A DNA stretch of 40,000 bases from Acidisphaera rubrifaciens HS-AP3. GTDB lineage: Bacteria; Pseudomonadota; Alphaproteobacteria; Acetobacterales; Acetobacteraceae. The notes beneath the pieces were generated by a model. The model was not told the DNA's origin and did no database searches. It saw only the letters and a list, made by a program, of their open reading frames with translations. The position numbers and the translations under genes are program-made. The DNA lies in NCBI RefSeq assembly GCF_000964365.1, contig NZ_BANB01000009.1, positions 1 through 40,000 on the forward strand. Reading direction: 5' to 3'. Positions 25,926 to 40,000 of the stretch are shown here, one piece after another (position 1 is the stretch's first letter; every line of letters begins with the position of its first letter).

Positions 25926-26337
25926 TTCGGGAGGCTGGGTGGCTTATGTACGCGCCTTGAACACCGCAGCGCCCCCTAGGAACAACGAGCTTGGCGGACG
26001 TGCCTAGCCACGTTGGGGCGCACGATGGTCCGACACGCGTTGGCGCGGAGGTCGCCGCTTATCAGCAAAATTCCGCCGGTTAAGACGGCAATTAATCTCG
26101 GATTGGTCGGCGCTGCCGGCGCGCAGGTCCCGATAATTGTACCCTGCATCCACGCTTCGAGCATCTCGAACCTCTCGCTGGTGCACAATTTTTTCGAATG
26201 ATCTCTCCAGGGCTAGCTGAAGAATCGCGACTATGCTATCCTCCGCAGATAGTAGTCGATGTCGTCGGCACCCCAAGATGTGGGGTTTGCGAACGCGCTG
26301 ACTAGCAGGTGAGCAACATTTGGGGGCACAGTTATCT

Positions 26338-27297
26338 ATGCAGACGGCCGCCGTAATTGGAACCCAGGCTGTCCCAGTGGCGCGTTCGAACTTGTCGATC
26401 GTCACCATCTGCACTAAACAAAAGCGGTTCAAGCCATCGCCCGCGGGCACTCCGGCGGCGCTTACCGCCGCCACCCAGGCAGACCTAGCGGCCCAATGGA
26501 TAGCCGTGACGCAATCCCTGCCTCGCACGACGGTTGCCGCCAACCTCTACGCCGGACGCGCTTTCGGCCTTGCCCGAGACGCCGCGATGGTAACCGCCGC
26601 TCCGCTCTTCATTCTCTCAGCAGGCCTCGGCCTAGTGGCGTCCGACACGCCTGTTCCCGCCTATGGGTTGACGGTCTCGCGCAGCGGCGCGGAGTCCATT
26701 TGGAGCAAAGTCATCGGGCCGTTCGACGCGAGTCGGTGGTTCGCCGCGCTCACTAAAGGCCCCCACGCCGTCGGATGGGATAAGGTGTTCTCGCCGGGTT
26801 CGGGTCGCGTGCTGATCGCCCTGACCCGGCCCTATGCTGTGATGATCGCGCCGACGCTCGCAAGCCTGCCGCATGACGACTTAAAGCGGCTTCGCATATT
26901 CGGTGCCGGCCTCTCGACGCTCCTACCTCCGACTGTGCGCGAGGCCGTAGCCCCCTATGATGATCGTCTGGACACCATGATGCCGGGCACGCGGTCCGAC
27001 TTCGCTCAGCGCGCCCTGCTACATTTCGCGCAGCACATCGCAGTCGTTGCTCGCGATCAAAAGGGCGACGCCGAGGCGGTCAAATGCGCGCTCGCGCCGG
27101 TCCGCGCACCTTTGCGGCCGACCCGCCGGAGTGGGTCGGACGCTGACATCCTAACCTTGATCAAAGCTCGCCTAGCGCCGGGCGCGAGCGCGAGTCGATT
27201 GCTGCGTCAACTCCGGGACGAAGACTACATCGCCTGCGAACAGGGCCGTTTCACTGAGTTGTTTCGCCAGGCAAAAGCCGAGGACTGCGCGTCATGA
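26338..27297 (+). CDS. Uncharacterized first gene of the deazaguanine operon; YaaA(DUF328)/DUF6884-like N-terminal signature plus a helical C-terminal tail
   Basis: IVTICTKQKR ... ANLYAGRAF ... LFILSAGLGLVASDTPVPAYGLTV parallels the ISPAK ... Y.G ... LSGLYGVLRPLD...PYRLEM layout of YaaA-like proteins. There is an alternative TTG start at 26320. The stop overlaps the next ATG (ATGA). Confidence 0.4.
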   Translation: MQTAAVIGTQAVPVARSNLSIVTICTKQKRFKPSPAGTPAALTAATQADLAAQWIAVTQSLPRTTVAANLYAGRAFGLARDAAMVTAAPLFILSAGLGLVASDTPVPAYGLTVSRSGAESIWSKVIGPFDASRWFAALTKGPHAVGWDKVFSPGSGRVLIALTRPYAVMIAPTLASLPHDDLKRLRIFGAGLSTLLPPTVREAVAPYDDRLDTMMPGTRSDFAQRALLHFAQHIAVVARDQKGDAEAVKCALAPVRAPLRPTRRSGSDADILTLIKARLAPGASASRLLRQLRDEDYIACEQGRFTELFRQAKAEDCAS

Positions 27298-28436
27298 CCC
27301 GCCCAAAGAAGACCGGGGAGCCTATTCTGGCGGTGCGCGCCGTTCGGACGTTCCAGGCCGAGAAGGCCGTCTACGCCTTCTTCCTCGCCGGCGCGGACTT
27401 ACTGAGGATCGCAGACCTCTCACGGGTGCATCGCGATGCCGAGGGCTCGCTCCATGGGTTTCAACGGAAGGGCATCAGGAGCCACGTCCAGGCAATCACC
27501 GACTATCTTAACCACGGCCCGGCCCTCTTCCCGAATTCCATCATCCTGGCCATCTCGCCGCGTGCACGATTCACCGCAGCACGGGGTGAGCGGCCGGAAG
27601 GCGACTTGCGTGTGGCGGAGGCCGGTACTCTACGCATCCCCGTGCCAGTGGATGGAACGCGTGCCGCCTGGATCGTCGATGGTCAGCAGAGATCACTCGC
27701 TCTATCCCAAGCCAAGGATAAGGCCTTTCCCGTCCCCGTGGTTGCGTTCGCTTCGGAAGATCTTTCCGTCCACCGGGAACAGTTCATCCTGGTAAACAAG
27801 GCCAAGCCACTTGATCCGCGCCTGATCAATGAATTGCTGCCTGAGGTCGACGCGTACTTCCCGCGCGACCTCGCAGCGCGAAAGATCCCGAGCCTGTTGG
27901 TGCATCGGCTTCAGACGGCGGCGGATTCGCCATTGCAAGGCCTGATCCGGCGGGTGTCGGAGGAAGAGAACACAGCGGTCATCATCGACTCCGCGCTGAT
28001 CAAGGGGATTCGCCAAAGCATCGCCAGTGGGTTGGGCGCTTTGGGACCGCTCAGGGCCAGCGGTTCGCAACCGGCCGATGTCGATGGCATGTATCGAGTG
28101 CTCACCGCGTTTTGGTCCGCCGCTCGAGACGCCTTCCCGGAGGCGTGGGGTCGACCTGCGACTGAGAGCCGGTTGATGCATTCGGCGGGCATCGAAGCCA
28201 TGAGCCTGCTTATGGACAGAGTGATGTCGCGGGCTGCGCCGGGTGTCGATCTCTACACCCACGCCTATGAGGCTCTTAGTCGTGTAGCCCCGCACTGCCA
28301 TTGGACCTCGGGTCGGTGGGCGGAACTGCAACGTGATTGGAACGAAATCCAGAACGTTGCCCGCGACATCAAGATGCTGTCGAGCCACCTCGCTCGTCTC
28401 GACCACCTCTACGCCTTCGCCAAGGTGGCTTCGTGA
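27294..28436 (+). CDS. DGQHR-domain (DndB/DpdB-like, ParB/Srx superfamily) protein, paralogue 1
   Basis: 380 aa with HGFQRKGIRSHVQAITDYL, AAWIVDGQQRSLAL and REQFILVNKAKPL. The motif reads DGQQR rather than DGQHR. Confidence 0.8.
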   Translation: MTRPKKTGEPILAVRAVRTFQAEKAVYAFFLAGADLLRIADLSRVHRDAEGSLHGFQRKGIRSHVQAITDYLNHGPALFPNSIILAISPRARFTAARGERPEGDLRVAEAGTLRIPVPVDGTRAAWIVDGQQRSLALSQAKDKAFPVPVVAFASEDLSVHREQFILVNKAKPLDPRLINELLPEVDAYFPRDLAARKIPSLLVHRLQTAADSPLQGLIRRVSEEENTAVIIDSALIKGIRQSIASGLGALGPLRASGSQPADVDGMYRVLTAFWSAARDAFPEAWGRPATESRLMHSAGIEAMSLLMDRVMSRAAPGVDLYTHAYEALSRVAPHCHWTSGRWAELQRDWNEIQNVARDIKMLSSHLARLDHLYAFAKVAS

Positions 28437-29722
28437 GATTCATCTTCGCCGACAGCTTGGATACGATCGACCCGGCATACGACTTTGTCGCTGACCGCAA
28501 CGGCGCAGGCCGCACGGTCCACCGAGACGATCAATATCCTCACGAATTTCTCGACCAGGCGCCCTACGATGGCATCCTAGTGTCGCGCGGGATCGTCGGT
28601 GACGCTCGCCACCCGGGAAAGTATTCCGAGGCGCAGTTGATGCGGTTTCGGCGCGAGGGCGCCCGCCGGTTCCTGCGTTACCCGCTTGAGCGGTTCCCGG
28701 ATAGCGTGGTGATGGGAGACTGCGGGGCGTTCACTTACCGCAACCTACCCGAACCGCCGTATAGAGCCAGGGACACAGTAGAATTCTACGCGGACGGTGG
28801 CTTCTCCCATGGCTGTGCGCCTGACCACCTGATCTTCGATTTCGACGACGTGGGTGTCGAGCGGGCGCTGACCGATGTCCCCGAAGACATTCGCAAGCGG
28901 TACGAGATCACTCTTCAAAACGGCGTGGAGTTTTTCGCCGAGGCCGCACGGCTGGGGCCTGGCTTCACCCCGATGGGGGTCATCCAGGGCTGGTCGACCC
29001 GGAGTATGGCGGACGCCGCCCGCCAACTCGCCGCAATGGGCTTCAACTACCTGGCCATCGGCGGAACCGTCCCGCTGAAGATCAATCAGATCCGGCGGGT
29101 CCTGGCGGCTGTGCGGGACGCCCTGCCGAACACGGTGCGGCTCCACCTGCTCGGCTTTGGGAAGATCGAAGAGCTTCGATCTTTGGAGGACTTTGGCGTC
29201 ACTAGCTTCGACACGACATCACCGCTTTTGCGGGCCTTCAAGGACGCACGCAAAAACTACTGGGCGCGGACCGCAGACGGCGATCTGTCCTACTACACGG
29301 CTATTCGCATTCCCCAAGCCACCGAGAATAACAAGCTCAAGCATAAGGCGCTTGAGGGCAGCTTGAATCAAGAGGCGGCGCGCCACCTCGAAGACGCCGC
29401 GCTCAAATGCGTGAGGGCCTATGCAACGGGCGAGGCCACCCTCGATCAGAGTCTGGATGCCATCATGGCCTACTGGGCCGCGCTCAACTGGGACGAAGAA
29501 AACTCGCCCAGTCGCCGTGCCGACGCGGCGGCGCGACAGCGCCAAGTCTATTCCGAGACCCTGGCCGACCGACCATGGGAGCATTGCGGGTGCCGCGTCT
29601 GTCGGGAGGGCGGTGTCGAAGTGCTGATCTTCCGGACCTCGAACCGCAACAAGCGGCGCGGCATGCACAACCTCCATGTCTTCCACACGCACGTCAACGA
29701 ATTTCGGCAGGAAACCGTATGA
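28433..29722 (+). CDS. dpdA: DpdA-like DNA (7-deazaguanine) transglycosylase, TGT superfamily
   Basis: The GTG at 28433 overlaps the upstream stop (GTGA). Matches are VRFIFADSLDTIDPAYDF, VMGDCGAFTY, VIQGW, LHLLGFG and FDTTSPL, plus the TGT zinc motif HCGCRVC...MHNLH. The gene sits among DGQHR and queCDE genes. Confidence 0.85.
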   Translation: MRFIFADSLDTIDPAYDFVADRNGAGRTVHRDDQYPHEFLDQAPYDGILVSRGIVGDARHPGKYSEAQLMRFRREGARRFLRYPLERFPDSVVMGDCGAFTYRNLPEPPYRARDTVEFYADGGFSHGCAPDHLIFDFDDVGVERALTDVPEDIRKRYEITLQNGVEFFAEAARLGPGFTPMGVIQGWSTRSMADAARQLAAMGFNYLAIGGTVPLKINQIRRVLAAVRDALPNTVRLHLLGFGKIEELRSLEDFGVTSFDTTSPLLRAFKDARKNYWARTADGDLSYYTAIRIPQATENNKLKHKALEGSLNQEAARHLEDAALKCVRAYATGEATLDQSLDAIMAYWAALNWDEENSPSRRADAAARQRQVYSETLADRPWEHCGCRVCREGGVEVLIFRTSNRNKRRGMHNLHVFHTHVNEFRQETV

Positions 29723-30801
29723 GCGAGACCCACCTTTCATTCGACGCCCTGGTCCCGGCGCAAAGCCGCAATATGACCGTCTTCACCTTCGTGGCGAAGG
29801 CGGCAGACATCGCTCGATTCGCCCGAATCGAGCGCGCCGGGCGTGCTGCCGACGGTATGCTGCAGGGTTTCCAGCGTCCGCAGATCGCCGCCCACATCCG
29901 GGAGATCCGCGACTATCTCGAGAAACCTAACGCAATTCTACCTAATCCGATCGTTGTGGCCTTCCTGGGCAAGGCCGAACTCGAACCGTCTCGTAAGGCG
30001 AAGGAATCGCGGCGCCTGAAGATCGACATCAGCGATGGGCCGCCCGGCTGGATCGTCGATGGACAGCAGCGATTCACGGCACTGTCGGAGCTCTACGGAA
30101 GGGAGTTCGAAGTACTGGTCTCCGGGTTCCTCTGTGAGTCGGAGGAGGAGTTGCAGAAGCAGTTCATCCTAATCAACAATACTCGCCCCCTGCCAAAGGC
30201 ACTAATCTATGAATTGCTGCCGCAGGTCGCCGACCTGCCACCGCGGATGTCAAGTAGATCTCAGGCCGCGCTGCTCACCGAAGCCCTTAACTATCGCGCG
30301 GGCTCAGCGCTCAAGGGCCTGATTAAACAGCAGACGAACCCGAAGGGCGTGATTCGCGATACAGTCCTCCAACGGGTCATTATGAACTCGCTAAGCGACG
30401 GCGCCTTGCGTCTCTACGCCGGTGACGACGCGCTTCTGCTGAGCAAAGGCGTCGAACTGATCAGCGAATATTGGCACGCTGTGCAGACGGTTTTCGCCAC
30501 TGATTGGGATGGGAAGACTCCCAAAGACTCCCGGCTCATTCATGGGACCGGCATCATCGCCCTGGGCTATGTGATGGACTACCTTAACGCCGTCACCGGT
30601 GCCGAGGCTCGCGACGAGTTCGCTCGCGGACTGCGTCCGCTGAAAGGCAAGACAGCTTGGTCCTCCGGCGAGTGGCACTTCGGCGAAGAGCGCCGGCGGT
30701 GGAACGGCTTGCAGAACGTCCCCGCAGACGTCCGCCAATTATCCTTCTATCTCCTGGACGTCATCAAGGCGGCACTCGCCGAACAAGCGCGGGCAGCCTA
30801 A
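29719..30801 (+). CDS. DGQHR-domain (DndB/DpdB-like) protein, paralogue 2
   Basis: The ATG at 29719 overlaps the dpdA stop (ATGA). Matches are LQGFQRPQIAAHIREIRDYL, PGWIVDGQQRFTAL and QKQFILINNTRPL. It is collinear with paralogue 1 along its whole length. Confidence 0.8.
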   Translation: MSETHLSFDALVPAQSRNMTVFTFVAKAADIARFARIERAGRAADGMLQGFQRPQIAAHIREIRDYLEKPNAILPNPIVVAFLGKAELEPSRKAKESRRLKIDISDGPPGWIVDGQQRFTALSELYGREFEVLVSGFLCESEEELQKQFILINNTRPLPKALIYELLPQVADLPPRMSSRSQAALLTEALNYRAGSALKGLIKQQTNPKGVIRDTVLQRVIMNSLSDGALRLYAGDDALLLSKGVELISEYWHAVQTVFATDWDGKTPKDSRLIHGTGIIALGYVMDYLNAVTGAEARDEFARGLRPLKGKTAWSSGEWHFGEERRRWNGLQNVPADVRQLSFYLLDVIKAALAEQARAA

Positions 30802-30803
30802 CG

Positions 30804-31439
30804 ATGGTCGCATACGCCGTTAAAGAGATTTTCTACACGCTGCAAGGCGAGGGCCGGCATGCGGGCCGCGCCGCCGTCTTCTGTCGCTTCGCAGGCTGTA
30901 ATCTCTGGAGCGGCCGCGAGCAAGATCGAGGAACAGCGACCTGTCGCTTCTGCGACACGGACTTCGTTGGCGTTGATGGTCAGGGTGGCGGGCGTTTCCA
31001 GGACGCTGCCGCCCTCGCTCAGGCGATCTCCGACGCCTGGATCGGCCGGGGAGGCCGCCGCCTCGTTGTATTAACCGGCGGCGAACCTCTGTTGCAGGTC
31101 GACGAATTACTCATCGAGCGCCTACACGCCATGGACTTCGAGGTGGCAGTGGAAACGAACGGCACCGTCCCCGCGCCGGCTGGACTCGATTGGATTGCGG
31201 TCAGCCCAAAGGGGAACGCGAAACTCCAAATCCTGCAGGGGAATGAACTCAAGCTGGTTTATCCCCAACCCGAGGCACTGCCGGACCGTTTCGAGGAGTT
31301 GGCATTTGCTCACCACCTCCTCCAACCCATGGACGGGCCCGACCTTGCGGCCAACACAGCCGCTGCCGTGGCTTACTGTCTGGCTAACCCGCGTTGGCGG
31401 CTCTCCCTACAATCACACAAAGTTCTGGGGATTCCCTGA
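30804..31439 (+). CDS. queE: 7-carboxy-7-deazaguanine synthase (radical SAM)
   Basis: MVAYAVKEIFYTLQGEGRHAGRAAVFCRFAGCNLWSGREQDRGTATCRFCDTDF has the C-x14-C-x2-C cluster motif of the short QueE type. GGEPLLQ also matches. Length is 211 aa. Confidence 0.9.
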   Translation: MVAYAVKEIFYTLQGEGRHAGRAAVFCRFAGCNLWSGREQDRGTATCRFCDTDFVGVDGQGGGRFQDAAALAQAISDAWIGRGGRRLVVLTGGEPLLQVDELLIERLHAMDFEVAVETNGTVPAPAGLDWIAVSPKGNAKLQILQGNELKLVYPQPEALPDRFEELAFAHHLLQPMDGPDLAANTAAAVAYCLANPRWRLSLQSHKVLGIP

Positions 31440-31816
31440 TGTTCGAACTCAGCAAGGAATTTCGATTCGACGCGGCCCACACGCTAGAACGCGTGATCGA
31501 CACAGAGCCGAGCCGCCGAATTCATGGCCATTCCTACCGAGCCGAGGTAGTGATTCGGGGTCGCCCAGATCCTCAGACCGGGATGATCATGGACCTTGGG
31601 CTCTTCGAGCGTGCGCTGGAATCTGCTCGGGAGGGCCTCGATCATCGGTTCCTCGACGAACTCCATGACCTTGGTCCCTCGACGATGGAAAATCTATCGG
31701 CCTGGATCTGGCGCAAGGTCGAACCCGTCTGTCCCGACCTCTGGCGCGTTACCGTGCGTCGCGACAGTGATCAGGGCGCATGCAGCTATTTCGGCCGGGA
31801 GGGTCAAGGGGTATGA
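31439..31816 (+). CDS. queD: 6-carboxy-5,6,7,8-tetrahydropterin synthase
   Basis: [41 protein letters not shown]...MIMDLG...LDHRFLDE. The HGH zinc site is present. The position of the usual Cys in CxxxHGH reads Ser (SRRIHGH). The start overlaps the queE stop (TGATG). Confidence 0.85.
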
Positions 31817-32514
31817 GCGATGGCGGCGCGCTGGTTTTGTTTTCTGGCGGCCAGGACTCGGCGACCTGTCTCGCCTGGGCGCTGAGCCGTTTCGATCGAG
31901 TGGAAACGATCGGGTTCGACTACGGCCAACGTCATCGGATCGAGTTGGACGTGAGAACCCGTTTCCTGGGCGAGATCCGGACGGCATTTCCTCAATGGGG
32001 CCAACGCCTGGGAAACGATCATCTGCTCGACCTGTCATCGCTTGGCCGGATCAGCGACACCGCGTTGACGACCGGCGCCACCATCGCCTTCGCCAAGAGT
32101 GGACTGCCGAACACCTTCGTGCCAGGTCGCAACTTGTTGTTCCTGACCTACGCCGGCGCAATCGCCTACCGTCGCGAGATTAAGCACCTCGTGACCGGGG
32201 TCTGCGAGACAGACTATTCCGGCTATCCGGACTGCCGCGACGACACCATCAAGGTCGTCCAGGTGGCGCTCAACCTGGGAATGGACAAGCGCTTCGTAAT
32301 ACACACGCCGCTCATGTTGATTGACAAGGCGGCAACCTGGTCTCTTGCGACCCAATTGGGCGGGCTACCCCTGGTCGAGTTGATCGTCGAGCACTCGCAC
32401 ACCTGTTACGAAGGTGATCGGACCCAGCGGCACGCATGGGGATATGGTTGCGGCGCCTGCCCAGCCTGCAATCTTCGCGCCCAAGGTTACGCAATTTGGG
32501 CATCAGACGCCTAG
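31813..32514 (+). CDS. queC: 7-cyano-7-deazaguanine (preQ0) synthase
   Basis: [24 protein letters not shown] carries the PP-loop SGGxDS; FDYGQRH also matches. The C-terminal Cys cluster is CYEGD...[11 protein letters not shown]. There is an ATGA overlap with the queD stop. Confidence 0.9.
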
Positions 32515-32797
32515 CAACTTCCCTTCAATTCCGTGCGGAAACGAGGTGTTTGTCGATTACTCGCACGACACCCGACGGCAGCGTGGCGCTTATGGACCTG
32601 ATACAAAAGTGCGACGACGGCGATTTTCTCAAAATCGTGGCCGAAGCTGTCCTTTGCTGCCATATGGCAGTGCTGCCGCATGCACACCATGAGCACTCAA
32701 CCCGCACGCGCACCCAAGGTCCAGCGATCGATGGACGCCAACATCATCAGAGGAGTGCCTTATCCAGAAGTCGAGTCGCGTCGCAGTCCGACCAGTT

Positions 32798-34849
32798 CTA
32801 TAGCCGTCGGCGCGCTTCTGCCCCCGACCAGTCCTCAACAGCGCGGACGATGCTCGTTGCCCCTCGGCCGGTTGCGTATACAAGCGGTCGGGCGCCCCGA
32901 CGCGACTTGATAAAGTCTGTCGCAGCATGTTTGGCAGATGCCCAGACAACCACTACAAGCTCTGCTCGAGCAACCATGGCGCCGAGAGCAGCGCTGCCAC
33001 CATGGTCGTGGTTGAGTTCGACCGTGAGGTTTGGGATCGCCGCCTGAAGCAAAGCCTCCGCCTGCCGGGCGGCGGGTTCGGTGAGTGTATAAATGCCCAC
33101 AACCTTGCCTTCCAGCGCAGCGCTGTTGAGGGCGGTCTCGGTCGGTGAGGGCGTGACGCCGAGGTCGATGCCCACCTCAGCAGCAAGCGCGGTCAGTGTC
33201 AGACGCTGACCTTCCGTAAGGCGCGGCCAGAGCGGGATAAGAACTGAGATTACGTCGATGCTGAATTCTTGCAGCCGGGTGGGGACGATAGGTGTGAAAC
33301 TTCGCGCGATCTCTACGAGCTCGAGGGCGTCGTAGGCGGACGTGCGGCTCAGGCCTTCGCTAGCGATGGTCTGCGCGGCATCCAGGGCGTCACGGTACTC
33401 CGCGACGGACAGACCGCACTTTAGTGCACCGTCGAGCAGGCCCGCTGCCGAGCGGAGCGCTGTCTCACCGCGACGGGCGCTCAGTGCCATGCGGGTGAGG
33501 GTTGCGAGATAGACCGGGCAGAGGTCCCGGCGCGGCCACCGTGGGTCCGACTGCGCCCATTGCACCAGGTAAGGGATCGCTTGTCCAAAGCGTTCTTCGG
33601 CCAACCCATCGGGAATGAGTTCGATCTTGGCGGCTAGCGCGCGCGCGGCGCCGACATCAGTGTCCGCGTCGGGCAGTCGCCAGGTGGTCGCTCCGGCGGC
33701 GGCCGCCTCGGCAGAGGCGAAGTCGTCCCTGGATAGGGCGTCCACCCAGGTGGACCAGTCGAAGGGTGGTTCGTGATCGCCCGCTCGCTCCAGCACCTCC
33801 TGCCAAATCGCGCGGTTGGCAGGGCGGCGGAAGAGATCATGGCGCGAATCAGCGCTGAGAGCGTTGACGGCGTCGCGTAACGCCGCATCGGCCGCAGGGT
33901 CGCCTTCGGCGGGTAATCCCGCCACGGTTATCAGCGCCGCGCGCGCCACAGCTAGCGGATCGTTCGTCGGCTCCGCATCGCGAGGGGCTGTTGACTCTTG
34001 TGGGACCTCCTGTCGCAGCGGCGGCACAAGGATGGCGCGCAGCCACTCGACTGCCGGTCGAGAGGGATCGGGGGCGATGCCAAGGAGCAATCGCGCGTAT
34101 TCCATCGCCGGATCGCTTCGCACCAGGTCGGGCGCGCGCTCGGCCGCCGCGTCGCTGTCGTAAACGGACGTCCAGTAGATGGCCTCGATTAGAATCTCGG
34201 CGGTGGCGGGCGCAGGCCCCGCCAGCGCCAGCGCTTCGAAGCGGTCGTGCCAACGGATAGCGCCCCAATCGCCTGCGACGGATAGGATCTGGACCTCGAG
34301 TTGGACGAGGTTGAGCGCCTCGAGGCGTGACTCTTCGCGCAGTACGGCGAGGATGCGCCAGGCCTCGGTGACGTCGCCGCCATTGAGAGCGTCTTGCAGC
34401 GCCGCGAGCAGACGCGAGGTCGGTTCAGGCCGGGCGATCGCAAGATCTGGAGCGCCCTCCAGGAGACTCGCTAACCGCACCAGGGCGCGTACCGCCACCG
34501 CCTCGCCTTGAGCATAGTTCCCGGGCTGAAGGCGCGCGGCTATCGTGATCCCAGCCCCAAGCAGTACTTGATCGACTCCGCGGGCGGGGTCGAGCGGCAC
34601 GGGTGCGCCCTCGAAGTCGGTGAACGTAGGACCGGCAAACGCGAGAAGCAGAGGCTCTAGCTTTCGCCATTCGGCTGGCGTTCGGGCAGCCGCGTAAACT
34701 ACGAGGTTGCCGCTTGGATCACGGACCGGAAACATCGCGCCCGGAAAGCGGGTCGACTGGAGGGTCGACGTCAAGCTGCGGGCACCCGCTGTGAGACTGT
34801 CCCAGTCGGCGGCTGCGGCGAGCGCCCCTAAATCGAGCGTTAGCCCCAT
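32798..34849 (-). CDS. Uncharacterized 683-aa protein, mostly helical, with a DUF2325-like C-terminal domain; last gene of the helicase-PLD operon
   Basis: The C-terminus KVVGIYTLTEPAARQAEALLQAAIPNLTVELNHDHGGSAALGAMVARAELVVVVWASAKHAATDFIKSRRGARPLVYATGRGATSIVRAVEDW follows the DUF2325 layout (strand, h.Dg.g, aDlVvv...sH, K....plv, s.S). The start overlaps the PLD gene's 3' end by 10 nt. Confidence 0.45.
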   Translation of the reverse strand: MGLTLDLGALAAAADWDSLTAGARSLTSTLQSTRFPGAMFPVRDPSGNLVVYAAARTPAEWRKLEPLLLAFAGPTFTDFEGAPVPLDPARGVDQVLLGAGITIAARLQPGNYAQGEAVAVRALVRLASLLEGAPDLAIARPEPTSRLLAALQDALNGGDVTEAWRILAVLREESRLEALNLVQLEVQILSVAGDWGAIRWHDRFEALALAGPAPATAEILIEAIYWTSVYDSDAAAERAPDLVRSDPAMEYARLLLGIAPDPSRPAVEWLRAILVPPLRQEVPQESTAPRDAEPTNDPLAVARAALITVAGLPAEGDPAADAALRDAVNALSADSRHDLFRRPANRAIWQEVLERAGDHEPPFDWSTWVDALSRDDFASAEAAAAGATTWRLPDADTDVGAARALAAKIELIPDGLAEERFGQAIPYLVQWAQSDPRWPRRDLCPVYLATLTRMALSARRGETALRSAAGLLDGALKCGLSVAEYRDALDAAQTIASEGLSRTSAYDALELVEIARSFTPIVPTRLQEFSIDVISVLIPLWPRLTEGQRLTLTALAAEVGIDLGVTPSPTETALNSAALEGKVVGIYTLTEPAARQAEALLQAAIPNLTVELNHDHGGSAALGAMVARAELVVVVWASAKHAATDFIKSRRGARPLVYATGRGATSIVRAVEDWSGAEARRRL

Positions 34850-35367
34850 TGAAGGCTCCCACTCCAGCGCTCCTGAAGGGCGAGTCGGCGTGACGCGGCG
34901 GCCTGTCTATCAACTCGAAGAAGGACGTGCTCGTCGCTCGCGGTTAGGCCACTCAGTGTTAGGTTCATGGAGCCACCGAAGATATAATCCTCGCCGACGA
35001 CCGCTTTCTCGTGAGCGGCAGGGGCGATGGCGAGGCCCAGACGCCCATCCGTCTCCAATTGGAGATCCCGGAGGGAGCGGATGAAGAGGGCGTTGTGATC
35101 GACCTCACGGACGACGACACAGAGGCGGCCGCTTCGATTTGCCAGGGCTTTGATGACCTCGGTCAGGCGAATGGAGGCTGCCGGCCAGTCCGGGCGCACG
35201 GCGCTGAAGGCGCGGGCGGTGTTGTCAATAACCTCAACGTTGGAGATCCAAGCCGACAGAATCCAGAGCTCTGGACTGGGTCGCAGCAGTTCCGACAGTA
35301 ACAGTGTTTGCAGGGTGTCGCGGATCGCCCGACTCTGCCACGGACCGCTGTAATCACGGCTCAGCAT
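34840..35367 (-). CDS. Single-HKD phospholipase-D-family nuclease (DpdK-like)
   Basis: AAHEKAVVGEDYIFGGSMNLT is an HxK...GSxN PLD motif. The ATG at 35367 overlaps the helicase stop (TGATG). Length is 175 aa. Confidence 0.75.
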   Translation of the reverse strand: MLSRDYSGPWQSRAIRDTLQTLLLSELLRPSPELWILSAWISNVEVIDNTARAFSAVRPDWPAASIRLTEVIKALANRSGRLCVVVREVDHNALFIRSLRDLQLETDGRLGLAIAPAAHEKAVVGEDYIFGGSMNLTLSGLTASDEHVLLRVDRQAAASRRLALQERWSGSLQWG

Positions 35368-38300
35368 CAGACCTGTTCCCGCAGAATGAGACTGGCCCAA
35401 ACCCGTGCATCGTCCTTTGCGATGCGCTCAACAACGGCATAGAGGCTAAGCGCACCGACATGAATCGGGGTCGCCTGAAGGCGAACCAGCGCCTCGCCCA
35501 GTCGCCGCTGCTCAGGGATGGGCGCAGATAGGGTAGCGGCGCCGTCGATTGCGAGGAGTTCGGTCAGCCGATTCCACCAATTATCCTCATCGAGCGGAAC
35601 CGCTGCGCGTGCGCCCTCAAAGAGAAGGCTGCGAACCAGGGCTGGTTCACAGGGCAGGGGAGCCCGATAAGGGTTCCAACTGGTCAGGCTTTGGCGGTGG
35701 AGCGACGCGGCGCGCGGCCACAGCAGGCTCGCGAAGACCGCCGCCCGGGTCGCGGCATCTGTTGCATCCGTGAAGATCCCAGCCTGTAGGCCAAGTTCGT
35801 TGGCATCAATGTCGCCGACTGCGAGCACGGCAATCTCTCGGAGGTCGAACTCAAGGCCAAGGCCAACCTCCACATTTGTCCAGAACGACAGGAGCCGGCG
35901 GACGACAGCGTCATGCGCCACCCCGAGACCCGGCGCGAGCATCCGGGCGCTGAGGGAGACGACGAAGGCGCGGCTTGTCTCGACGCCGCAGCCCTCCAAT
36001 TGCGACAGCAAACGCGCTCGTGCTGCGGCGCGCGGCCGGTGGTCAACCTCGGCGCGCACGCCGGCGACGGCGGCGGCCACGTCCGGATTTTCCGCTGCCA
36101 GACGGTAGGTTCGGGTCAGTGCGCTGGCCGCGACATCGAGATCGGAGGGCTCGAGAGCCGCTTCGATGCCGCGGAAGATAAGCCGCGGTTCGGCGGCGAA
36201 GCGGTCGGTGAGAGCCTGGAGCACACCAGCGCCGCCGACCGTGGATTCTGTCAGCCAAATGGTTGAGTGACCCGGCTGATGTTCGTCGTTGGCGATGTCG
36301 ACGAGCAAGGCCTCGGCCGAGGCCTGTCGCGGTGTTGCAGCCACGGCTGCCGCCATTAGACCTTCGGCGAGCGTGCCCTGAAGGGCGCGCCGCATGTAGT
36401 CGCCGAGGCGGGGGCTCGTGTCGTCAAGCGCCTCCAGCAGGGCGGCGTGCAATCGAGCCCGGACGTTGTCCTTCGCCAGTTCGTCGCGCAGGCCAGCCTT
36501 TAGCCGTTCCAACCGATCACGGCGTGGACGCCCGCGGCCAGTCGGTCCGTGGGCGCCGCCACCGCTACCGCCGGCGTCATCTTCGTCCGATCCCGCGTTC
36601 GTGTGGGCGTCGCGTCGCTGAACGCCGAGGACGGCGTCTAGAGTGGCGGCATAGTCCGCAAACATGCCCGCCGCGGATACCGCATCGGCGGCCGCGACTA
36701 GGGGTTCATTCCGTTCGAGCGCGCGCCGAGCGCAGACCAGCAGGTGGATTTGACGTAGCCATGCTCGTGAGAAGACGTTCTGATCGCGGTCCAGCAGAGG
36801 GTCTTCGTTCACCAGACGCTTGTGCAGCGCTGCCCGAAGTCCGCGGCGGATGGTATCCTCGATAGGCGCAGCTTGCAGGTTATCGGGCGGAGGCAAGGTG
36901 AGGTGTAGCGCCAGGCCATCGGTCTCGAACTCGAAGCCCACGGCAGCCGTGGTGTCGTCCGCGTCACGGAAGTGAATGTCGACCACTTGCTGGACGCCAG
37001 CGGGACGGCGCAGGTCAGCGCGCGCGCCAGTGGCGAACCGTGTCACCTCCACGCTGGCCCGGAAGCGGTGCAGTTGGATATCCGCCCCCCGTACGAAGGT
37101 GCGCCAGGCGGTGCGCGCGGGCGTTGCGATTTCTACCGGCGCACCGCGCGCCGCAAAGGCGCTGGCCCACGTGAGCTGCGAATTGGAGGTGACTCCGATG
37201 ACTTCGGGGCGGGCGCGGTCAAGGTGGATCCGCCAAGGGCGATGGACGTTGGCTTCAATGAATCCAGCCCCTCCCTCGCCACGCCGCACTCCCAGAGGCT
37301 GAGACGCCTCGGCGTAGGAGGCGATAGGGAGGTTCCAGTCCGTCACCCCCGCCGGGACTGCCGACCAATGCGATAGCCCGCCGTAGTCGTCGCCAAAACG
37401 TCGGGTGACGCGGCCGGGCGCGAGTTGCGCAAGTCCTTGTTGGAGCGGCATGGACTCCAGGGTATCTGGCTCGCCGTTCCGGCTCGGCGGTAGGACGATA
37501 TCGAGTTCGGGCAGATTCAGATCGGAGAAGAGGGCTCTGGGCGCAAAGTCGGGAAGAGGGTGGTCGGGCGTGAAGCGATCGCGCTCATGACCTTGTGTCG
37601 GCCAGGCCAAGTTCCAGTTTCGGAACAGCCGGCGCAATAGCGTCGGCGCCACTTCCAAGAGGATCGACCGTGGCGCCTCCCACAGAAGGCGGTCGACGGT
37701 CAGCTCCTCTACGCGAAGGGCGTTGAGAAGGTGCTGGCGCAGCGCGCGGCGTTCCGGGCCATCCTCGCGAAGGATCTCGCCAAGCAAGCGCACAATGTGA
37801 TCGCGCAACGCCTGATCGTCCCAGGTGGGTGACTTCGGCGCGGCGACCGTTCGCCAGACGCTGCCGGCCGGTGCCTGCCGCGGTTGATCAGCAAGCCAGT
37901 CTAGCAGCGAAAACACCGCCTGCATGCGAAGGACATATTCGTTGCGGACCGGTAGCGCCTGTGCCGCCAAAGTGGGATCGAAGAGGTGTTCAACGGCTTG
38001 GAAGAGCGACCGATCTCGCCCTTGGTCGGATAAGACAGTGACCGTAAGTGGACGCATCATGCGGTCCCGGCCTGCGCGGCCACGGCGCTGGAGGAAGGCG
38101 GCGTAGTCGCGCGGAGCTTTGTGCTGCAGGACAGCGCCCACGGTGCGGTCGTTGAAGCCAACCTCCAGGGCGGCTGTGGCCACGATGATGTCAGCGGCGA
38201 CGTCGACCCCTGGATCGCGTGAGGTGGTGCGGCCGACACGCAGGCGATCGGCTAGATTTCGGCCCAAGGTCTCCGGTAGACGCCAGCGCTGACCATCAGC

Positions 38301-39917
38301 GTCGCGAAGCCGACGTTCCGCATCGGTTTCGGCCTGACCCGGCAAAATCTGGGCGCGCAGGACCGCTAGGGGCTGACGGCCGGGATCGGGGCGACCGAAG
38401 CGGTCGTAGGCCTCCGCATCCCGAAAGTCGTGGAAGAGGCGGTGGGTGACGTCGAGATCATCGGTGAAGGCAAAGATCCGACGGCCATAGCGTCCTTGGG
38501 ACGGCGCAACTGAAGGATCCATGATCCTGCCCAGCAGCATGGCAGTCTGGATCGACGCTGACAGAACCGTGGTGCGCGCGGCCGGATCGCTACGCAGCAC
38601 CACCTGATATTCCCGACCTTCCTCTTCTAACTCGTCCTCAAGCGGGACGACCTCCGTAACAGAGGCGACATCGACGCCGGTCAACTCAGCGAAGAAGCGC
38701 GCCGCGTCGCTCAGGGTCGCGGAGAGGCCAGCCCACGTGACCGGACCGCCGACGAGGTGGCGCCAACGGCGTAGGGTCAGCGCCGCCTGGGCGCCGGATA
38801 CGCCCGTGTAGGTGTGAGCCTCATCGAGCAGCAAGAACTCCGGTCGTCGACCCGGCGGCGCGCGGACGCCGAATACCACTCGCGATGTTTGGTCGGAGAG
38901 CGAGCGGTTCAGCATCTCTGTAGTAGTAAAAAGAAAATCAGGCGGTTCACGGCGCTGTCGGTTGCGCGTGAGGACGAGGATCTCGGGGTTCGTCTCGTAT
39001 CCGCAGTTGCGAAGGCAGACTAGGCGTTCCCGACCCGCCGCCAGGTCCTCGCGCGCCCAAATCATGTCCCCGCCGCACTCACATCGCAGGAAAGGGCAGA
39101 TGAAACCTGCGCCGTTACGGGTGGCCTTCCACTTTCCACCGACGCTCTGCTCCGACGCTGCTTGGGGAGTATCGCCGAAATAAGGTCCTATGCGCATCGG
39201 CCGCCGACCGGCTGCCCGAAGGGCGGGCGAGACCGCTGAGGCGTTGCGCAGCGCTTCAGACAACTGGTCCTTTAGCAACTCGTTGCGTGGATAGATGGCG
39301 ATCGCTTTGGTCCAGAAATCCCCAGGCTGGACGGACTCTGCCAGGCGAAGAAAGACCGGGAGGTAGAAGGCCAGGGTTTTCCCAGATCCCGTGCCGGCGC
39401 CGACAATGACACCAGCGTCGCGGTCGTTGGAGACCAGCAGTCTCTGAGCCGCACGCTTCTGGAACTGGGCGAGTCGAGTCGGCGATAGCGCGCGCCAAAT
39501 ATGTCGCTGCAAATCGGAGAGCGGGCCTAGTTCTTGCATAACGTCCGCCGCGTCAAGTTCACGCGCGGGATAACGACGCTTGCGAAGGTCGATCCGAAAG
39601 TCGGCCACCAAAGGTGGAGCGCCCTGCCAGGCCTCACCCGGAAAAGTCTGTCGAAGGCGTGCGAGCAAGCGGATCGTTTCGGCGAACCGCGAGCGATATC
39701 GTTCGCCGCCTCCGGGAGGATTGAACGCCTGAACCAGGCCCGCCTCCAGCAGCGCTTCGACCGCGTCCTCGGTGTCGGCGGCGAAGTGCGTCGTCGCGAG
39801 ATCTAGAATCGTGTCGCGGGAAAGCGAGGCTGCGGCGTCGCCCCATCTTAGCGACAGGAGTTCCAGATCCTCGATGCTGTTCAGCAATTCGTCGTGGCGT
39901 CGATCCAGGACGGTCAT
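35367..39917 (-). CDS. Giant SF2 DEAD/DEAH-box helicase (about 1516 aa; DpdJ/DruE/Lhr-like)
   Basis: Motif I is GAGTGSGKTLAFYLP (encoded at 39375-39401), Ia AIYPRNELLKDQ, II LLLDEAHTY, III LSATLS and VI FLQRRGRAGR. There is a Cys-rich insertion, CPFLRCECGGDM...CLRNCGYE. The ATG at 39917 forms an ATGA overlap with the stop of an upstream gene. The listed GTG start at 39968 is less likely. Confidence 0.85.
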   Translation of the reverse strand: MTVLDRRHDELLNSIEDLELLSLRWGDAAASLSRDTILDLATTHFAADTEDAVEALLEAGLVQAFNPPGGGERYRSRFAETIRLLARLRQTFPGEAWQGAPPLVADFRIDLRKRRYPARELDAADVMQELGPLSDLQRHIWRALSPTRLAQFQKRAAQRLLVSNDRDAGVIVGAGTGSGKTLAFYLPVFLRLAESVQPGDFWTKAIAIYPRNELLKDQLSEALRNASAVSPALRAAGRRPMRIGPYFGDTPQAASEQSVGGKWKATRNGAGFICPFLRCECGGDMIWAREDLAAGRERLVCLRNCGYETNPEILVLTRNRQRREPPDFLFTTTEMLNRSLSDQTSRVVFGVRAPPGRRPEFLLLDEAHTYTGVSGAQAALTLRRWRHLVGGPVTWAGLSATLSDAARFFAELTGVDVASVTEVVPLEDELEEEGREYQVVLRSDPAARTTVLSASIQTAMLLGRIMDPSVAPSQGRYGRRIFAFTDDLDVTHRLFHDFRDAEAYDRFGRPDPGRQPLAVLRAQILPGQAETDAERRLRDADGQRWRLPETLGRNLADRLRVGRTTSRDPGVDVAADIIVATAALEVGFNDRTVGAVLQHKAPRDYAAFLQRRGRAGRDRMMRPLTVTVLSDQGRDRSLFQAVEHLFDPTLAAQALPVRNEYVLRMQAVFSLLDWLADQPRQAPAGSVWRTVAAPKSPTWDDQALRDHIVRLLGEILREDGPERRALRQHLLNALRVEELTVDRLLWEAPRSILLEVAPTLLRRLFRNWNLAWPTQGHERDRFTPDHPLPDFAPRALFSDLNLPELDIVLPPSRNGEPDTLESMPLQQGLAQLAPGRVTRRFGDDYGGLSHWSAVPAGVTDWNLPIASYAEASQPLGVRRGEGGAGFIEANVHRPWRIHLDRARPEVIGVTSNSQLTWASAFAARGAPVEIATPARTAWRTFVRGADIQLHRFRASVEVTRFATGARADLRRPAGVQQVVDIHFRDADDTTAAVGFEFETDGLALHLTLPPPDNLQAAPIEDTIRRGLRAALHKRLVNEDPLLDRDQNVFSRAWLRQIHLLVCARRALERNEPLVAAADAVSAAGMFADYAATLDAVLGVQRRDAHTNAGSDEDDAGGSGGGAHGPTGRGRPRRDRLERLKAGLRDELAKDNVRARLHAALLEALDDTSPRLGDYMRRALQGTLAEGLMAAAVAATPRQASAEALLVDIANDEHQPGHSTIWLTESTVGGAGVLQALTDRFAAEPRLIFRGIEAALEPSDLDVAASALTRTYRLAAENPDVAAAVAGVRAEVDHRPRAAARARLLSQLEGCGVETSRAFVVSLSARMLAPGLGVAHDAVVRRLLSFWTNVEVGLGLEFDLREIAVLAVGDIDANELGLQAGIFTDATDAATRAAVFASLLWPRAASLHRQSLTSWNPYRAPLPCEPALVRSLLFEGARAAVPLDEDNWWNRLTELLAIDGAATLSAPIPEQRRLGEALVRLQATPIHVGALSLYAVVERIAKDDARVWASLILREQV

Positions 39918-40000
39918 CGGCGCGCCCGGACAGTGAACGAGGCCATGAGGTTCTGGGCTGTCAGCCACGTTTTCACCTCGTCGGTCAGGCTGTCGAGCGC
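39914..40000 (-). CDS. 3' end of a further upstream minus-strand gene (only 28 codons visible)
   Basis: My translation of the minus strand is ...ALDSLTDEVKTWLTAQNLMASFTVRARR-stop. The stop TGA at 39914-39916 overlaps the helicase ATG. Confidence 0.5.
   Translation of the reverse strand, partial: ALDSLTDEVKTWLTAQNLMASFTVRARR

What the first reader, a model, noticed from the sequence alone, without database searches (positions are those of the whole stretch)
32798..40000. Convergent restriction-type operon: giant DEAH helicase + single-HKD PLD nuclease + 683-aa unknown, continuing past the window
**Seen in sequence.** Three minus-strand genes are translationally coupled. The helicase stop and PLD start overlap as TGATG at 35367, and the PLD 3' end overlaps the 683-aa gene start by 10 nt. 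A fourth gene's stop overlaps the helicase ATG at 39914-39917, so the operon extends upstream beyond base 40000.

**Established knowledge.** The dpd restriction half (dpdD-K) includes a very large DEAD/DEAH helicase (DpdJ) followed by a small PLD protein (DpdK). Helicase + PLD pairs are also the core of DISARM, and giant helicases occur in Druantia.

**Inference.** This is the effector half that discriminates deazaguanine-modified from unmodified DNA. The extra gene after the PLD, and the convergent layout in which the two operons meet tail to tail at 32515-32797, differ from the single-direction textbook layout as I remember it.
Basis: partly seen in the sequence, partly recalled or inferred. 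Interest (0 to 1): 0.75.

Follow-up and report, generated by a model that had tools for sequence, protein, structure and literature searches.

The report
Known Dpd restriction genes DpdJ-DpdK-DpdD
The three coupled genes are the already catalogued DpdJ helicase, DpdK nuclease and DpdD protein of the Dpd system, which marks a bacterium's own DNA with 7-deazaguanine bases and restricts unmarked DNA; their order and tail-to-tail layout are the usual ones, so the locus is ordinary.

Summary
Three intact minus-strand genes are tightly coupled (TGATG at 35365-35369, a 10-nt overlap at 34840-34849). A fourth ORF ends in ATGA on the helicase start and runs off the window.

The identification as the Dpd restriction half is right. 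Against NCBIfam equivalog models:
- The helicase scores 1586 bits for DpdJ (cutoff 800).
- The PLD protein scores 177 bits for DpdK (cutoff 100).
- The "683-aa unknown" scores 512 bits for DpdD (cutoff 300).

NCBI already names the identical proteins DpdJ and DpdD in Acidisphaera rubrifaciens. The truncated upstream ORF matches the C-terminus of DpdI in relatives, whose operons read dpdE-F-G-H-I-J-K-D.

The claimed departure from the textbook layout is wrong:
- J-K-D order occurs in 64 of 69 related loci from many phyla.
- When the modification genes lie within 10 kb downstream, they converge on dpdD in 14 of 21 loci.
- A PGAP-annotated Enterobacter plasmid has the same convergent layout.

DISARM and Druantia models give only weak local helicase hits. 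The restriction mechanism of Dpd is still unknown. I infer that DpdJ is the translocase or sensor, a DpdK dimer is the nuclease, and DpdD is a scaffold. Novelty: already known. Interest: low.

The parts
39914..40000 (-). 3' end of the upstream gene, probably dpdI (29 codons visible, stop overlapping the dpdJ ATG as ATGA)
   Evidence: Translation. It aligns with the C-terminus of the 234-aa gene just upstream of dpdJ in L001 (...IDSLTEEVSTWLKAHNLAASFTIRAR*). That gene hits NCBIfam DpdI end to end, but only at 32 bits, below the 150-bit cutoff.
35367..39917 (-). dpdJ: 1516-aa YprA-family SF2 (DEAH) helicase
   Evidence: NCBIfam NF041067 DpdJ scores 1586 bits (cutoff 800) over residues 12-1516. 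PADLOC DpdJ gives E = 0 at 1411 bits. It is 100% identical to NCBI 'protein DpdJ [Acidisphaera rubrifaciens]'.
39375..39395 (-). DpdJ Walker A / motif I, GTGSGKT (residues 175-181)
   Evidence: Invariant in the 14-sequence alignment A1.
39003..39098 (-). DpdJ Cys cluster (C274, C279, C281, C301, C305) inserted between motifs I and II: predicted zinc-binding motif in RecA1
   Evidence: All five Cys are invariant in A1. This matches the zinc-binding motif described for Dpd YprA helicases (bioRxiv 10.1101/2025.09.15.676423). The other three Cys of the protein are not conserved, consistent with the reported loss of the DUF1998 Cys4 cluster.
38814..38834 (-). DpdJ motif II, LLLDEAH (residues 362-368)
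   Evidence: D365, E366 and H368 are invariant in A1.
34840..35367 (-). dpdK: 175-aa single-HKD phospholipase-D-family protein, the predicted nuclease
   Evidence: NCBIfam NF041068 DpdK scores 177 bits (cutoff 100). The only PADLOC hits are DpdK models, best 3e-51. Pfam PLDc_2 reaches only 17.6 bits, below its gathering score of 27.
34963..35013 (-). DpdK catalytic motif H119-E-K121 ... G-S-M-N135
   Evidence: H, K and GS(M/F)N are at least 90% conserved across DpdK from 75 loci. It is the only HxK in the protein.
   Evidence: NCBIfam NF041061 DpdD scores 512 bits (cutoff 300). PADLOC DpdD gives 5.9e-95. It is 100% identical to NCBI 'protein DpdD [Acidisphaera rubrifaciens]'.
34454..34849 (-). 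DpdD N-terminal alpha/beta domain (residues 1-132), no known family
   Evidence: AF2 model with mean pLDDT 85.8. Invariant positions include F35, P36, G37, P41, W61, R62, G73 and G81. No Pfam or PDB sequence match.
33176..34420 (-). DpdD central all-helical solenoid (residues 144-558)
   Evidence: AF2 secondary structure. Foldseek against PDB finds only weak TPR/PPR-like repeat matches, best E = 2.7e-3 and TM at most 0.19.
32804..33103 (-). DpdD C-terminal four-stranded alpha/beta domain (residues 583-682), DUF2325-like
   Evidence: The domain modelled alone has pLDDT 91.2 and pTM 0.85. Of 16 DpdD C-termini, 12 hit Pfam DUF2325 below threshold (best E = 1e-4, 18-19 bits against GA 33.6). Foldseek against PDB gives only generic receiver or Rossmann-like matches.
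32515..32797 (.). 283-bp spacer where the two operons meet tail to tail
   Evidence: No terminator-like or promoter-like site. Only a 12-nt palindrome at 32719-32736. No Rfam family. No plasmid DNA match.
26320..27297 (+). dpdC (DUF6884); true start probably downstream of the TTG
   Evidence: PADLOC DpdC 9e-75. Pfam DUF6884 40.6 bits (GA 30). No NCBIfam hit.
27294..28436 (+). dpdB copy 1 (DGQHR / DndB-like, ParB-like ATPase)
   Evidence: NCBIfam NF041060 DpdB scores 428 bits (cutoff 300).
28433..29722 (+). dpdA (TGT-like DNA guanine transglycosylase)
   Evidence: NCBIfam NF041059 DpdA scores 531 bits (cutoff 200).
29719..30801 (+). dpdB copy 2, 34% identical to copy 1
   Evidence: NCBIfam DpdB scores 395 bits (cutoff 300). 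BLASTP identity to copy 1 is 33.6%.
30801..32514 (+). queE (30801-31439), queD (31394-31816) and queC (31780-32514): preQ0 synthesis genes
   Evidence: queE scores 344 bits on TIGR04508 (cutoff 240). queC scores 196 bits on TIGR00364 (cutoff 150). queD scores 101.7 bits on Pfam PTPS but is below the QueD equivalog cutoff.

Best explanation
Bases 32798-40000 hold the 3' end of a canonical Dpd restriction operon, dpdE-F-G-H-I-J-K-D. Visible here are the last 29 codons of dpdI, then dpdJ, dpdK and dpdD. The operon converges on the cognate modification operon dpdC-dpdB-dpdA-dpdB'-queE-queD-queC at 26320-32514.

**Shown elsewhere (Salmonella Montevideo).**
- DpdA, with the DpdB ATPase, swaps a guanine in DNA for preQ0.
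- DpdC hydrolyses it to the amide, ADG.
- dpdD-K are needed to restrict unmodified DNA.
- The role of each restriction protein is unknown.

**Inferred for this locus by homology.** It does the same.

**Inferred mechanism for the three genes.**
- DpdJ is a YprA-family SF2 helicase with intact Walker A and DEAH motifs and an invariant five-Cys zinc motif. I propose it is the ATP-driven DNA translocase and sensor.
- DpdK has one HxK...GSxN half-site, so it must dimerise like Nuc or BfiI to form one active site. I propose it is the nuclease that cuts DNA lacking the deazaguanine mark.
- DpdD has an orphan alpha/beta domain, a TPR-like helical solenoid and a DUF2325-like alpha/beta domain, with no recognisable catalytic motif. 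I propose it is a scaffold or regulator made together with DpdK and DpdJ through translational coupling.
For: **Family membership.** DpdJ scores 1586 bits (cutoff 800), DpdK 177 (cutoff 100) and DpdD 512 (cutoff 300), all full length. PADLOC gives the same names.

**Existing annotation.** The identical proteins are already named DpdJ and DpdD by NCBI in Acidisphaera rubrifaciens.

**Modification module.** DpdA and two DpdB copies are above cutoff. DpdC is found by PADLOC and Pfam. queE and queC are above cutoff, and queD is found by Pfam.

**Relatives.**
- L001 (82% identical DpdJ) and L003 carry dpdE, F, G and H upstream, all above NCBIfam cutoffs (913, 748, 97 and 513 bits), plus a DpdI-like gene whose C-terminus matches the window's truncated ORF.
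- J-K-D order is found in 64 of 69 loci.
- The modification module converges on dpdD in 14 of the 21 loci that have it downstream.
- The same layout occurs in PGAP-annotated Enterobacter cloacae pPOL9A.
- The J/K junction is a 1- or 4-nt overlap in 52 of 64 loci.

**Catalytic residues.** The DpdK H, K and GSxN residues are at least 90% conserved in 75 loci. The DpdJ motifs and the five Cys are invariant.

**Literature.**
- dpdD-K contribute to the restriction phenotype and their roles are unknown (PMC10164549; PMC12707154).
- DpdJ is a YprA-family helicase associated with a PLD nuclease (10.1101/2025.09.15.676423).
Against: - Nothing contradicts the identification.
- dpdE-H are not visible in the window, and I could not retrieve the rest of the contig. 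Completeness of the operon in this genome is therefore inferred.
- No experiment exists for this organism: neither dADG nor dPreQ0 has been measured and no restriction assay has been run.
- The roles assigned to DpdJ, DpdK and DpdD are inference. No Dpd restriction protein has a solved structure or published biochemistry.
- The DpdK Asp is displaced by one position relative to the classic HxK(x)4D spacing, and Pfam PLDc_2 is below threshold.
- The DpdD structure searches gave no significant match, so 'scaffold' is the default reading of a helical repeat protein and not a finding.
Confidence: 0.9

Rival explanations
1. The helicase and PLD pair belongs to a DISARM-type system (DrmA/DrmB helicase plus DrmC PLD nuclease) that merely sits next to a deazaguanine modification operon.
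For: DpdJ and DrmA are both YprA-family helicases, and both systems pair the helicase with a PLD nuclease. PADLOC DrmA models give weak local hits on DpdJ: 2.1e-9 over residues 575-658 and 4.8e-7 over residues 148-224.
Against: - The DpdJ model wins by more than 1300 bits and covers the full length.
- DpdK hits only DpdK models and no DrmC model.
- There is no separate DUF1998/DrmB gene and no conserved Cys4 cluster.
- Upstream genes in relatives are dpdE-I, above DpdE, F, G and H cutoffs. DrmD scores only 118 bits against a cutoff of 610 on DpdE.
- No methyltransferase lies in the operon.
Confidence: 0.02
2. The giant helicase marks a Druantia-type system (DruE).
For: PADLOC DruE models hit DpdJ locally (about 1e-19, residues 312-421 and 165-218). 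The nearest PDB sequence is a 2108-aa DEAD/DEAH helicase, 9tu7, at E = 2.8e-7 over about 70 residues.
Against: - The hits cover only the shared helicase motifs.
- No DruA-D-like genes occur in relatives.
- In the published YprA tree, Dpd groups with DISARM and not with Druantia.
Confidence: 0.01
3. The operon is a Dpd restriction module in name but is incomplete, inactive or uncoupled from the adjacent modification genes in this genome. It could be a remnant carried on a conjugative element, or a module that restricts by a criterion other than absence of deazaguanine.
For: - Only I (partial), J, K and D are visible, and dpdE-H are unverified here.
- In 38 of 59 related loci no modification gene lies within 10 kb downstream of dpdD. 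In L001/L005 the operon is followed by unrelated cargo, so the two modules are not always adjacent.
- No restriction protein of Dpd has been characterised biochemically.
Against: - All three genes are full length against their models, with catalytic motifs intact.
- Translational coupling is preserved.
- The contig is 51,127 bp, so about 11 kb lies outside the 40-kb window. That would be enough for the roughly 10 kb of dpdE-I if it all lies on the dpdJ side.
- A complete modification operon with preQ0 synthesis genes abuts the restriction genes, in the commonest adjacent arrangement.
Confidence: 0.07

Closest known systems
Dpd (7-deazapurine in DNA) restriction-modification system of Salmonella enterica serovar Montevideo, and the PGAP-annotated copy on Enterobacter cloacae plasmid pPOL9A (NZ_CP086409.1)
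   Same: - The same protein families are present: DpdA, B, C, D, J and K here, and E-I in close relatives.
- The restriction operon order is the same, E-F-G-H-I-J-K-D.
- The convergent meeting of dpdD with the modification genes is the same.
- The small K/D overlap is conserved: 10 nt here and 8 nt in pPOL9A.
   Different: - The proteins are only about 37% identical (DpdJ).
- A second, divergent dpdB follows dpdA here. pPOL9A has one dpdB.
- queE, queD and queC are inside the operon here.
- The locus sits on a conjugative element of a high-G+C alphaproteobacterium, not at the leuX island.
- All these variations are already recorded in surveys. For example, dpdB is the most often duplicated dpd gene, with 801 additional copies (PMC12235509).
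DISARM (DrmA/DrmB helicase with DrmC PLD nuclease)
   Same: A YprA-family SF2 helicase is paired with a small PLD-family nuclease. An SNF2 (BrxHII/DrmD-like) helicase is in the same operon. The logic is self-marking plus restriction.
   Different: - In DISARM the helicase is split, with DUF1998 in a separate gene. Here it is one 1516-aa protein without the Cys4 cluster.
- According to the YprA preprint, DrmC carries an N-terminal four-helix bundle that the Dpd PLD lacks.
- The mark is a methyl group in DISARM and a deazaguanine here.
- HMM scores reject membership.
Druantia DruE and ARMADA YprA helicases
   Same: Very large YprA-family helicases in defence operons.
   Different: These carry a nuclease fused to the C-terminus, whereas Dpd uses a separate PLD protein. 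They sit on a different branch of the YprA tree. Only local motif-level hits occur here.
Single-HKD PLD nucleases Nuc (Salmonella pKM101) and BfiI (recalled from my own knowledge, not searched here)
   Same: One HxK...GSxN half-site per small subunit, which implies a homodimer forming one active site.
   Different: - There is no significant sequence match in the PDB.
- The Asp after the HxK is shifted by one position, and the residue at the classic position varies.
- DpdK is always encoded directly after a helicase: a 1- or 4-nt overlap in 52 of 64 loci and a gap of 15 nt or less in 60 of 64.

Membership tests
Dpd restriction-modification system | DpdA, a TGT-like DNA guanine transglycosylase | tested here: met
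   Window 28433-29722 scores 531 bits on NCBIfam NF041059 (cutoff 200). PADLOC DpdA gives 2.4e-151.
Dpd restriction-modification system | DpdB, a DGQHR / ParB-like ATPase next to DpdA | tested here: met
   Two copies, 27294-28436 and 29719-30801, score 428 and 395 bits (cutoff 300).
Dpd restriction-modification system | DpdC (DUF6884), which converts preQ0 to ADG | tested here: met
   PADLOC DpdC gives 9e-75. Pfam DUF6884 scores 40.6 bits (GA 30). No NCBIfam model hit.
Dpd restriction-modification system | DpdJ, the large YprA-family helicase | tested here: met
   NF041067 scores 1586 bits (cutoff 800), full length.
Dpd restriction-modification system | DpdK, the small PLD-family protein directly after DpdJ | tested here: met
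   NF041068 scores 177 bits (cutoff 100). TGATG junction with dpdJ.
Dpd restriction-modification system | DpdD | tested here: met
   NF041061 scores 512 bits (cutoff 300). It lies directly after dpdK, as in 64 of 69 loci.
Dpd restriction-modification system | DpdE, F, G, H and I upstream of DpdJ | tested here: inconclusive
   - Only 29 codons of the upstream gene are in the window. They align with the DpdI C-terminus of L001.
- dpdE-H are seen only in relatives.
- The rest of the contig could not be fetched.
Dpd restriction-modification system | dPreQ0 or dADG present in genomic DNA | not testable with these tools
   Needs LC-MS/MS of A. rubrifaciens DNA.
Dpd restriction-modification system | Restriction of unmodified incoming DNA that depends on dpdD-K | not testable with these tools
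   Shown only for the Salmonella cluster (PMC10164549, PMC12707154).
PLD / HKD nuclease superfamily (for DpdK) | HxK(x)4D(x)6GSxN motif | tested here: inconclusive
   H119, K121 and G-S-M-N (132-135) are present and at least 90% conserved. The Asp is one position later than canonical, with five and not six residues before GSxN. Pfam PLDc_2 scores 17.6 bits, below GA 27.
DISARM | DrmA helicase plus a separate DrmB (DUF1998), DrmC and a methyltransferase | tested here: not met
   DrmA models hit only locally at 2e-9. There is no DrmC hit on DpdK and no conserved Cys4 cluster. Neighbours in relatives are dpdE-I.
Druantia | DruE full-length match with DruA-D or DruH partners | tested here: not met
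   DruE hits cover only about 100 residues at about 1e-19. No Dru partners occur in relatives.

The most novel reading that the evidence does not exclude
The translationally coupled trio DpdJ-DpdK-DpdD may form a discrete effector sub-complex. In this reading DpdD, and not the helicase, is the licensing subunit that reads the modification state or the activity of the modification machinery, and it gates the DpdK nuclease. DpdD consists of an orphan N-terminal alpha/beta domain, a TPR-like solenoid and a DUF2325-like C-terminal alpha/beta domain. Its position at the junction with the modification operon in most adjacent layouts would fit such a bridging role. Nothing here tests this reading. 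It rests on the absence of any catalytic signature in a well-predicted three-domain protein and on conserved gene adjacency.
Probability: 0.15. Interest if true: 0.45.

Novelty: already known. Interest (0 to 1): 0.12.

Why it matters
For this locus there is little at stake. It is one more standard Dpd system, already named by NCBI's annotation pipeline, in an acidophilic alphaproteobacterium.

Its general interest comes from the family. A 2025 review states that the restriction activity associated with ADG 'has not been further explored' (PMC12707154). No DpdD-K protein has a structure or an assigned biochemical role.

The survey made here could help anyone designing experiments on the effector end of Dpd:
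- The J-K-D order is near-universal, with overlapping stop and start codons.
- The DpdK catalytic residues are conserved.
- DpdD has a three-domain architecture with a DUF2325-like C-terminus.

None of this depends on this particular window.

Tried and rejected
- **Fetching the sequence beyond base 40000.** Exact-protein look-ups for DpdD, DpdK and DpdJ/P0001 found no record. A single-protein scan of genome contigs found no relative. I used relatives instead.
- **DISARM and Druantia assignment.** Rejected on HMM scores and neighbours.
- **Function of DpdD.**
  - Pfam finds nothing on the full protein.
  - There is no PDB sequence match for the full protein, the N-terminal domain or the C-terminal domain.
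  - Foldseek of the full model finds only TPR/PPR-like repeats at E >= 2.7e-3.
  - Foldseek of the C-terminal domain finds only generic receiver, ATCase or Rossmann-like folds at E >= 4e-3 and TM <= 0.57.
  - DUF2325 is a sub-threshold but consistent hit (12 of 16 members). The family itself has no characterised function, and the five papers that mention it are all on unrelated topics.
- **The 283-bp spacer 32515-32797.**
  - I suspected that the ORF fragment ...MDLIQKCDDGDFLKIVAEAVL... was a transposase relic. No Pfam hit at E <= 10 and no plasmid DNA match, so the idea is dropped.
  - No terminator-like hairpin and no Rfam family anywhere in the window.
- **Papers not held.** Thiaville 2016, Yuan 2018, the 2024 MMBR review and Iyer 2013 could not be read. 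The Salmonella layout was therefore not read directly. It was inferred from the annotated Enterobacter plasmid and from the review's 'dpdCAB' order.


Full report
**Observation.** The minus strand of 32798-40000 carries three intact, tightly packed genes.
- The large gene runs from the ATG at 39917 to the TGA at 35369-35367 and encodes 1516 aa. That stop shares its A with the ATG of the next gene (TGATG).
- The second gene (35367-34840, 175 aa) overlaps the ATG at 34849 of the third gene (683 aa, ending at 32798) by 10 nt.
- A further ORF is open from base 40000 and stops at 39916-39914 inside ATGA on the helicase start.
- LLLDEAH is at helicase residues 362-368 and GTGSGKT at 175-181. The single H-E-K is at residues 119-121 of the small protein, followed by GSMN.

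**Identity.** All three proteins pass the curated 'equivalog' cutoffs of NCBIfam: DpdJ 1586 bits (cutoff 800), DpdK 177 (cutoff 100) and DpdD 512 (cutoff 300). Each is aligned essentially end to end. PADLOC gives the same names: DpdJ E = 0, DpdK 3e-51, DpdD 5.9e-95. The '683-aa unknown' is therefore DpdD.

The plus-strand operon that meets it at 32515-32797 is dpdC, dpdB, dpdA, a second dpdB, queE, queD and queC.

The large protein database holds 100%-identical entries that NCBI calls 'protein DpdJ' and 'protein DpdD' of Acidisphaera rubrifaciens, on a 51,127-bp contig. The locus is already annotated publicly.

**What lies beyond the window.** I could not fetch the contig itself. Close relatives show what is there.
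- A Caulobacteraceae MAG (L001/L005, DpdJ 82% identical) and a Phenylobacterium genome (L003, 64%) both have dpdE-F-G-H-I-J-K-D as one co-directional block.
- In L001, DpdE, F, G and H score 913, 748, 97 and 513 bits, all above their cutoffs.
- The 234-aa gene before dpdJ matches the DpdI model over its full length but at only 32 bits, below the 150-bit cutoff.
- Its C-terminus (…IDSLTEEVSTWLKAHNLAASFTIRAR*) aligns with the window's truncated ORF (…LDSLTDEVKTWLTAQNLMASFTVRARR*).

**Is the layout unusual?** No. A profile-based scan of one genome per species returned 80 DpdJ loci from Alpha-, Beta- and Gammaproteobacteria, Cyanobacteria, Chloroflexota, Paenibacillus, Planctomycetota, Verrucomicrobiota, Acidobacteriota and others. 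I mapped the Dpd proteins onto them with tblastn.
- dpdJ is followed by dpdK and then dpdD in 64 of the 69 loci with enough downstream sequence. The other five have dpdK but no detectable dpdD at this sensitivity.
- Of the 59 loci with at least 8 kb downstream, 21 have the modification genes there: 14 convergent on dpdD as here, 5 co-directional and 2 mixed.
- In 14 of those 21 loci two dpdB copies are present. The per-locus maps typically show them flanking dpdA in the order C-B1-A-B2 seen in the window.
- Enterobacter cloacae plasmid pPOL9A, annotated by PGAP, reads dpdE, dpdF, dpdG, dpdH, hypothetical, dpdJ, dpdK, dpdD, then dpdB and dpdA on the opposite strand. The enterobacterial form has the same order and the same convergence.
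- The J/K junction is a 1- or 4-nt overlap in 52 of 64 loci.
- A published survey of 2335 unique dpd islands already notes that dpdB is the most often duplicated dpd gene (PMC12235509).

**Rivals.**
- DISARM and Druantia share the YprA helicase family with Dpd (10.1101/2025.09.15.676423). This explains the weak local DrmA (2e-9) and DruE (about 1e-19) hits on DpdJ.
- They are excluded by the full-length DpdJ match, by DpdK hitting only DpdK models, by the lack of a conserved Cys4 (DUF1998) cluster and by the dpdE-I neighbours.
- A remnant or uncoupled module cannot be fully excluded, because dpdE-H are not visible here. The genes are intact, however, and about 11 kb of the contig lies outside the 40-kb window, which would hold them if it all lies on the dpdJ side.

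**How it probably works.**

*Shown in Salmonella.*
- DpdA with the DpdB ATPase inserts preQ0 in place of guanine.
- DpdC makes ADG from it.
[quoted passage not shown] - No Dpd restriction protein has a solved structure.

*Inferred here.*
- DpdJ has intact ATPase motifs and five invariant cysteines (274, 279, 281, 301, 305) between motifs I and II. These match the zinc-binding insert described for Dpd YprA helicases. I take DpdJ to be the translocase and sensor.
- DpdK has one H-x-K…G-S-x-N half-site, at least 90% conserved over 75 loci. It must dimerise to form an active site, and it is the likeliest nuclease. The Asp is shifted by one position, and Pfam PLDc_2 is below threshold.
- DpdD folds with good confidence (mean pLDDT 85.8) into three parts:
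  - An N-terminal alpha/beta domain with no known relatives.
  - A long helical solenoid that resembles TPR/PPR repeats only weakly.
  - A C-terminal four-stranded alpha/beta domain (pLDDT 91 when modelled alone). It hits Pfam DUF2325 below threshold in 12 of 16 homologues and resembles only generic receiver or Rossmann-like folds.
- With no catalytic signature, a scaffold or regulatory role is the default reading of DpdD. That reading is not tested.

**Context.**
- The first 26 kb of the window is a conjugative-element backbone. It carries TrbB, TrbC, TrbE and TrbK, the TraG coupling protein, a DUF3363 relaxase, SLT, a TraF-like S26 peptidase, ParA, RepA, a Toprim protein and a ParB-like protein.
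- Two small plus-strand inserts sit in this backbone: an Mrr-type endonuclease and a Lit-like peptidase.
- Third-position G+C is 0.69-0.76 in the Dpd genes and 0.81-0.84 in traG and the relaxase gene. This is consistent with Dpd being acquired cargo.

**Verdict.** The Dpd reading is correct. The supposed novelty (an extra unknown gene and an atypical convergent layout) is not real. The locus is a known member of a known system, and its interest is low.

Noticed in passing
window 1-26000: This region is a conjugative-element (ICE or plasmid, Tn4371-like) backbone, all on the minus strand:
- TrbK 942-2087
- TrbE/VirB4 2008-4569
- TrbC pilin 4720-5676
- TrbB 5043-6008
- TraG coupling protein 7393-9381
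- DUF3363 relaxase 10459-12294
- SLT 12461-13291
- S26 peptidase 13294-13833
- DUF2840 13803-14309
- ParA 14554-15192
- RepA (PF10134) 15189-16604
- DUF736 18331-18690
- YAcAr/SLOG 19915-20895
- Toprim + DUF7146 21167-22270
- ParB_N protein 22289-24406

The Dpd system is therefore cargo on, or next to, a mobile element. No tRNA gene is in the window.
   Followed up: partly
window 9496-10446 (+): A Lit-like Peptidase_U49 gene (PADLOC Lit 6.6e-15; Pfam 27.8 bits, GA 23.9) lies on the opposite strand between traG and the relaxase gene. It may be a second, abortive-infection-type defence gene carried by the element.
   Followed up: partly
window 6230-6823 (+): An Mrr_cat restriction-endonuclease-domain protein (197 aa, Pfam E = 1.5e-5) sits between trbB and traG. 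The 6001-7000 stretch is the lowest-G+C kilobase of the window (0.563). It looks like another inserted cargo gene. No PADLOC model hit.
   Followed up: partly
window 27294-28436 and 29719-30801: Two DpdB paralogues flank dpdA. They are only 34% identical, yet both exceed the DpdB equivalog cutoff. Two dpdB copies flanking dpdA (typically C-B1-A-B2) recur in about 14 of the 21 related loci that have the modification module downstream. It is an old, conserved paralogue pair and not a recent duplication. This could mean a heteromeric DpdB ATPase.
   Followed up: partly
window 26320-39917 versus 7393-12294: Third-codon-position G+C is 0.69-0.76 in all Dpd and que genes, against 0.81-0.84 in traG and the relaxase gene. 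Overall G+C of the modification operon (0.59-0.645) is lower than that of dpdD and dpdJ (0.654-0.664). This suggests the Dpd island, and perhaps its two halves, came from elsewhere.
   Followed up: partly
window 32515-32797; L003 17117-17126: Here the convergent queC and dpdD stops are separated by 283 bp of 56.5% G+C with no recognisable terminator. In Phenylobacterium (L003) the two convergent genes overlap by 10 nt. How two convergent operons terminate without colliding is unexplained.
   Followed up: partly
L001 9297-10001; L085 17074-17922: DpdI is poorly captured by current models. The gene in the DpdI position scores only 32 bits against the NCBIfam cutoff of 150 in L001, and it is annotated 'hypothetical protein' on Enterobacter pPOL9A. 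This may explain why surveys report dpdI as one of the two dpd genes least often found clustered with dpdAB.
   Followed up: partly
L050 and L055 (cyanobacterial loci), downstream of dpdD: A second dpdJ-like gene follows dpdD in two cyanobacterial loci, with a second dpdK in L050. This suggests a tandem duplication of the helicase-nuclease pair.
   Followed up: no
L001/L005 17237-24554: In the closest relative (82% DpdJ) the restriction operon is not followed by dpdABC. It is followed by an SRAP protein, a DNA cytosine methylase with a GIY-YIG protein, and then TrbB and TraG. It sits on a conjugative element too, but with different neighbouring cargo. In 38 of 59 loci no modification gene lies within 10 kb downstream of dpdD. 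Their position upstream of dpdE could not be checked with the flanks available.
   Followed up: no
window 26320-32514: The modification operon carries queE, queD and queC but no folE (GTP cyclohydrolase I). The first step of preQ0 synthesis must come from a gene elsewhere in the genome.
   Followed up: no
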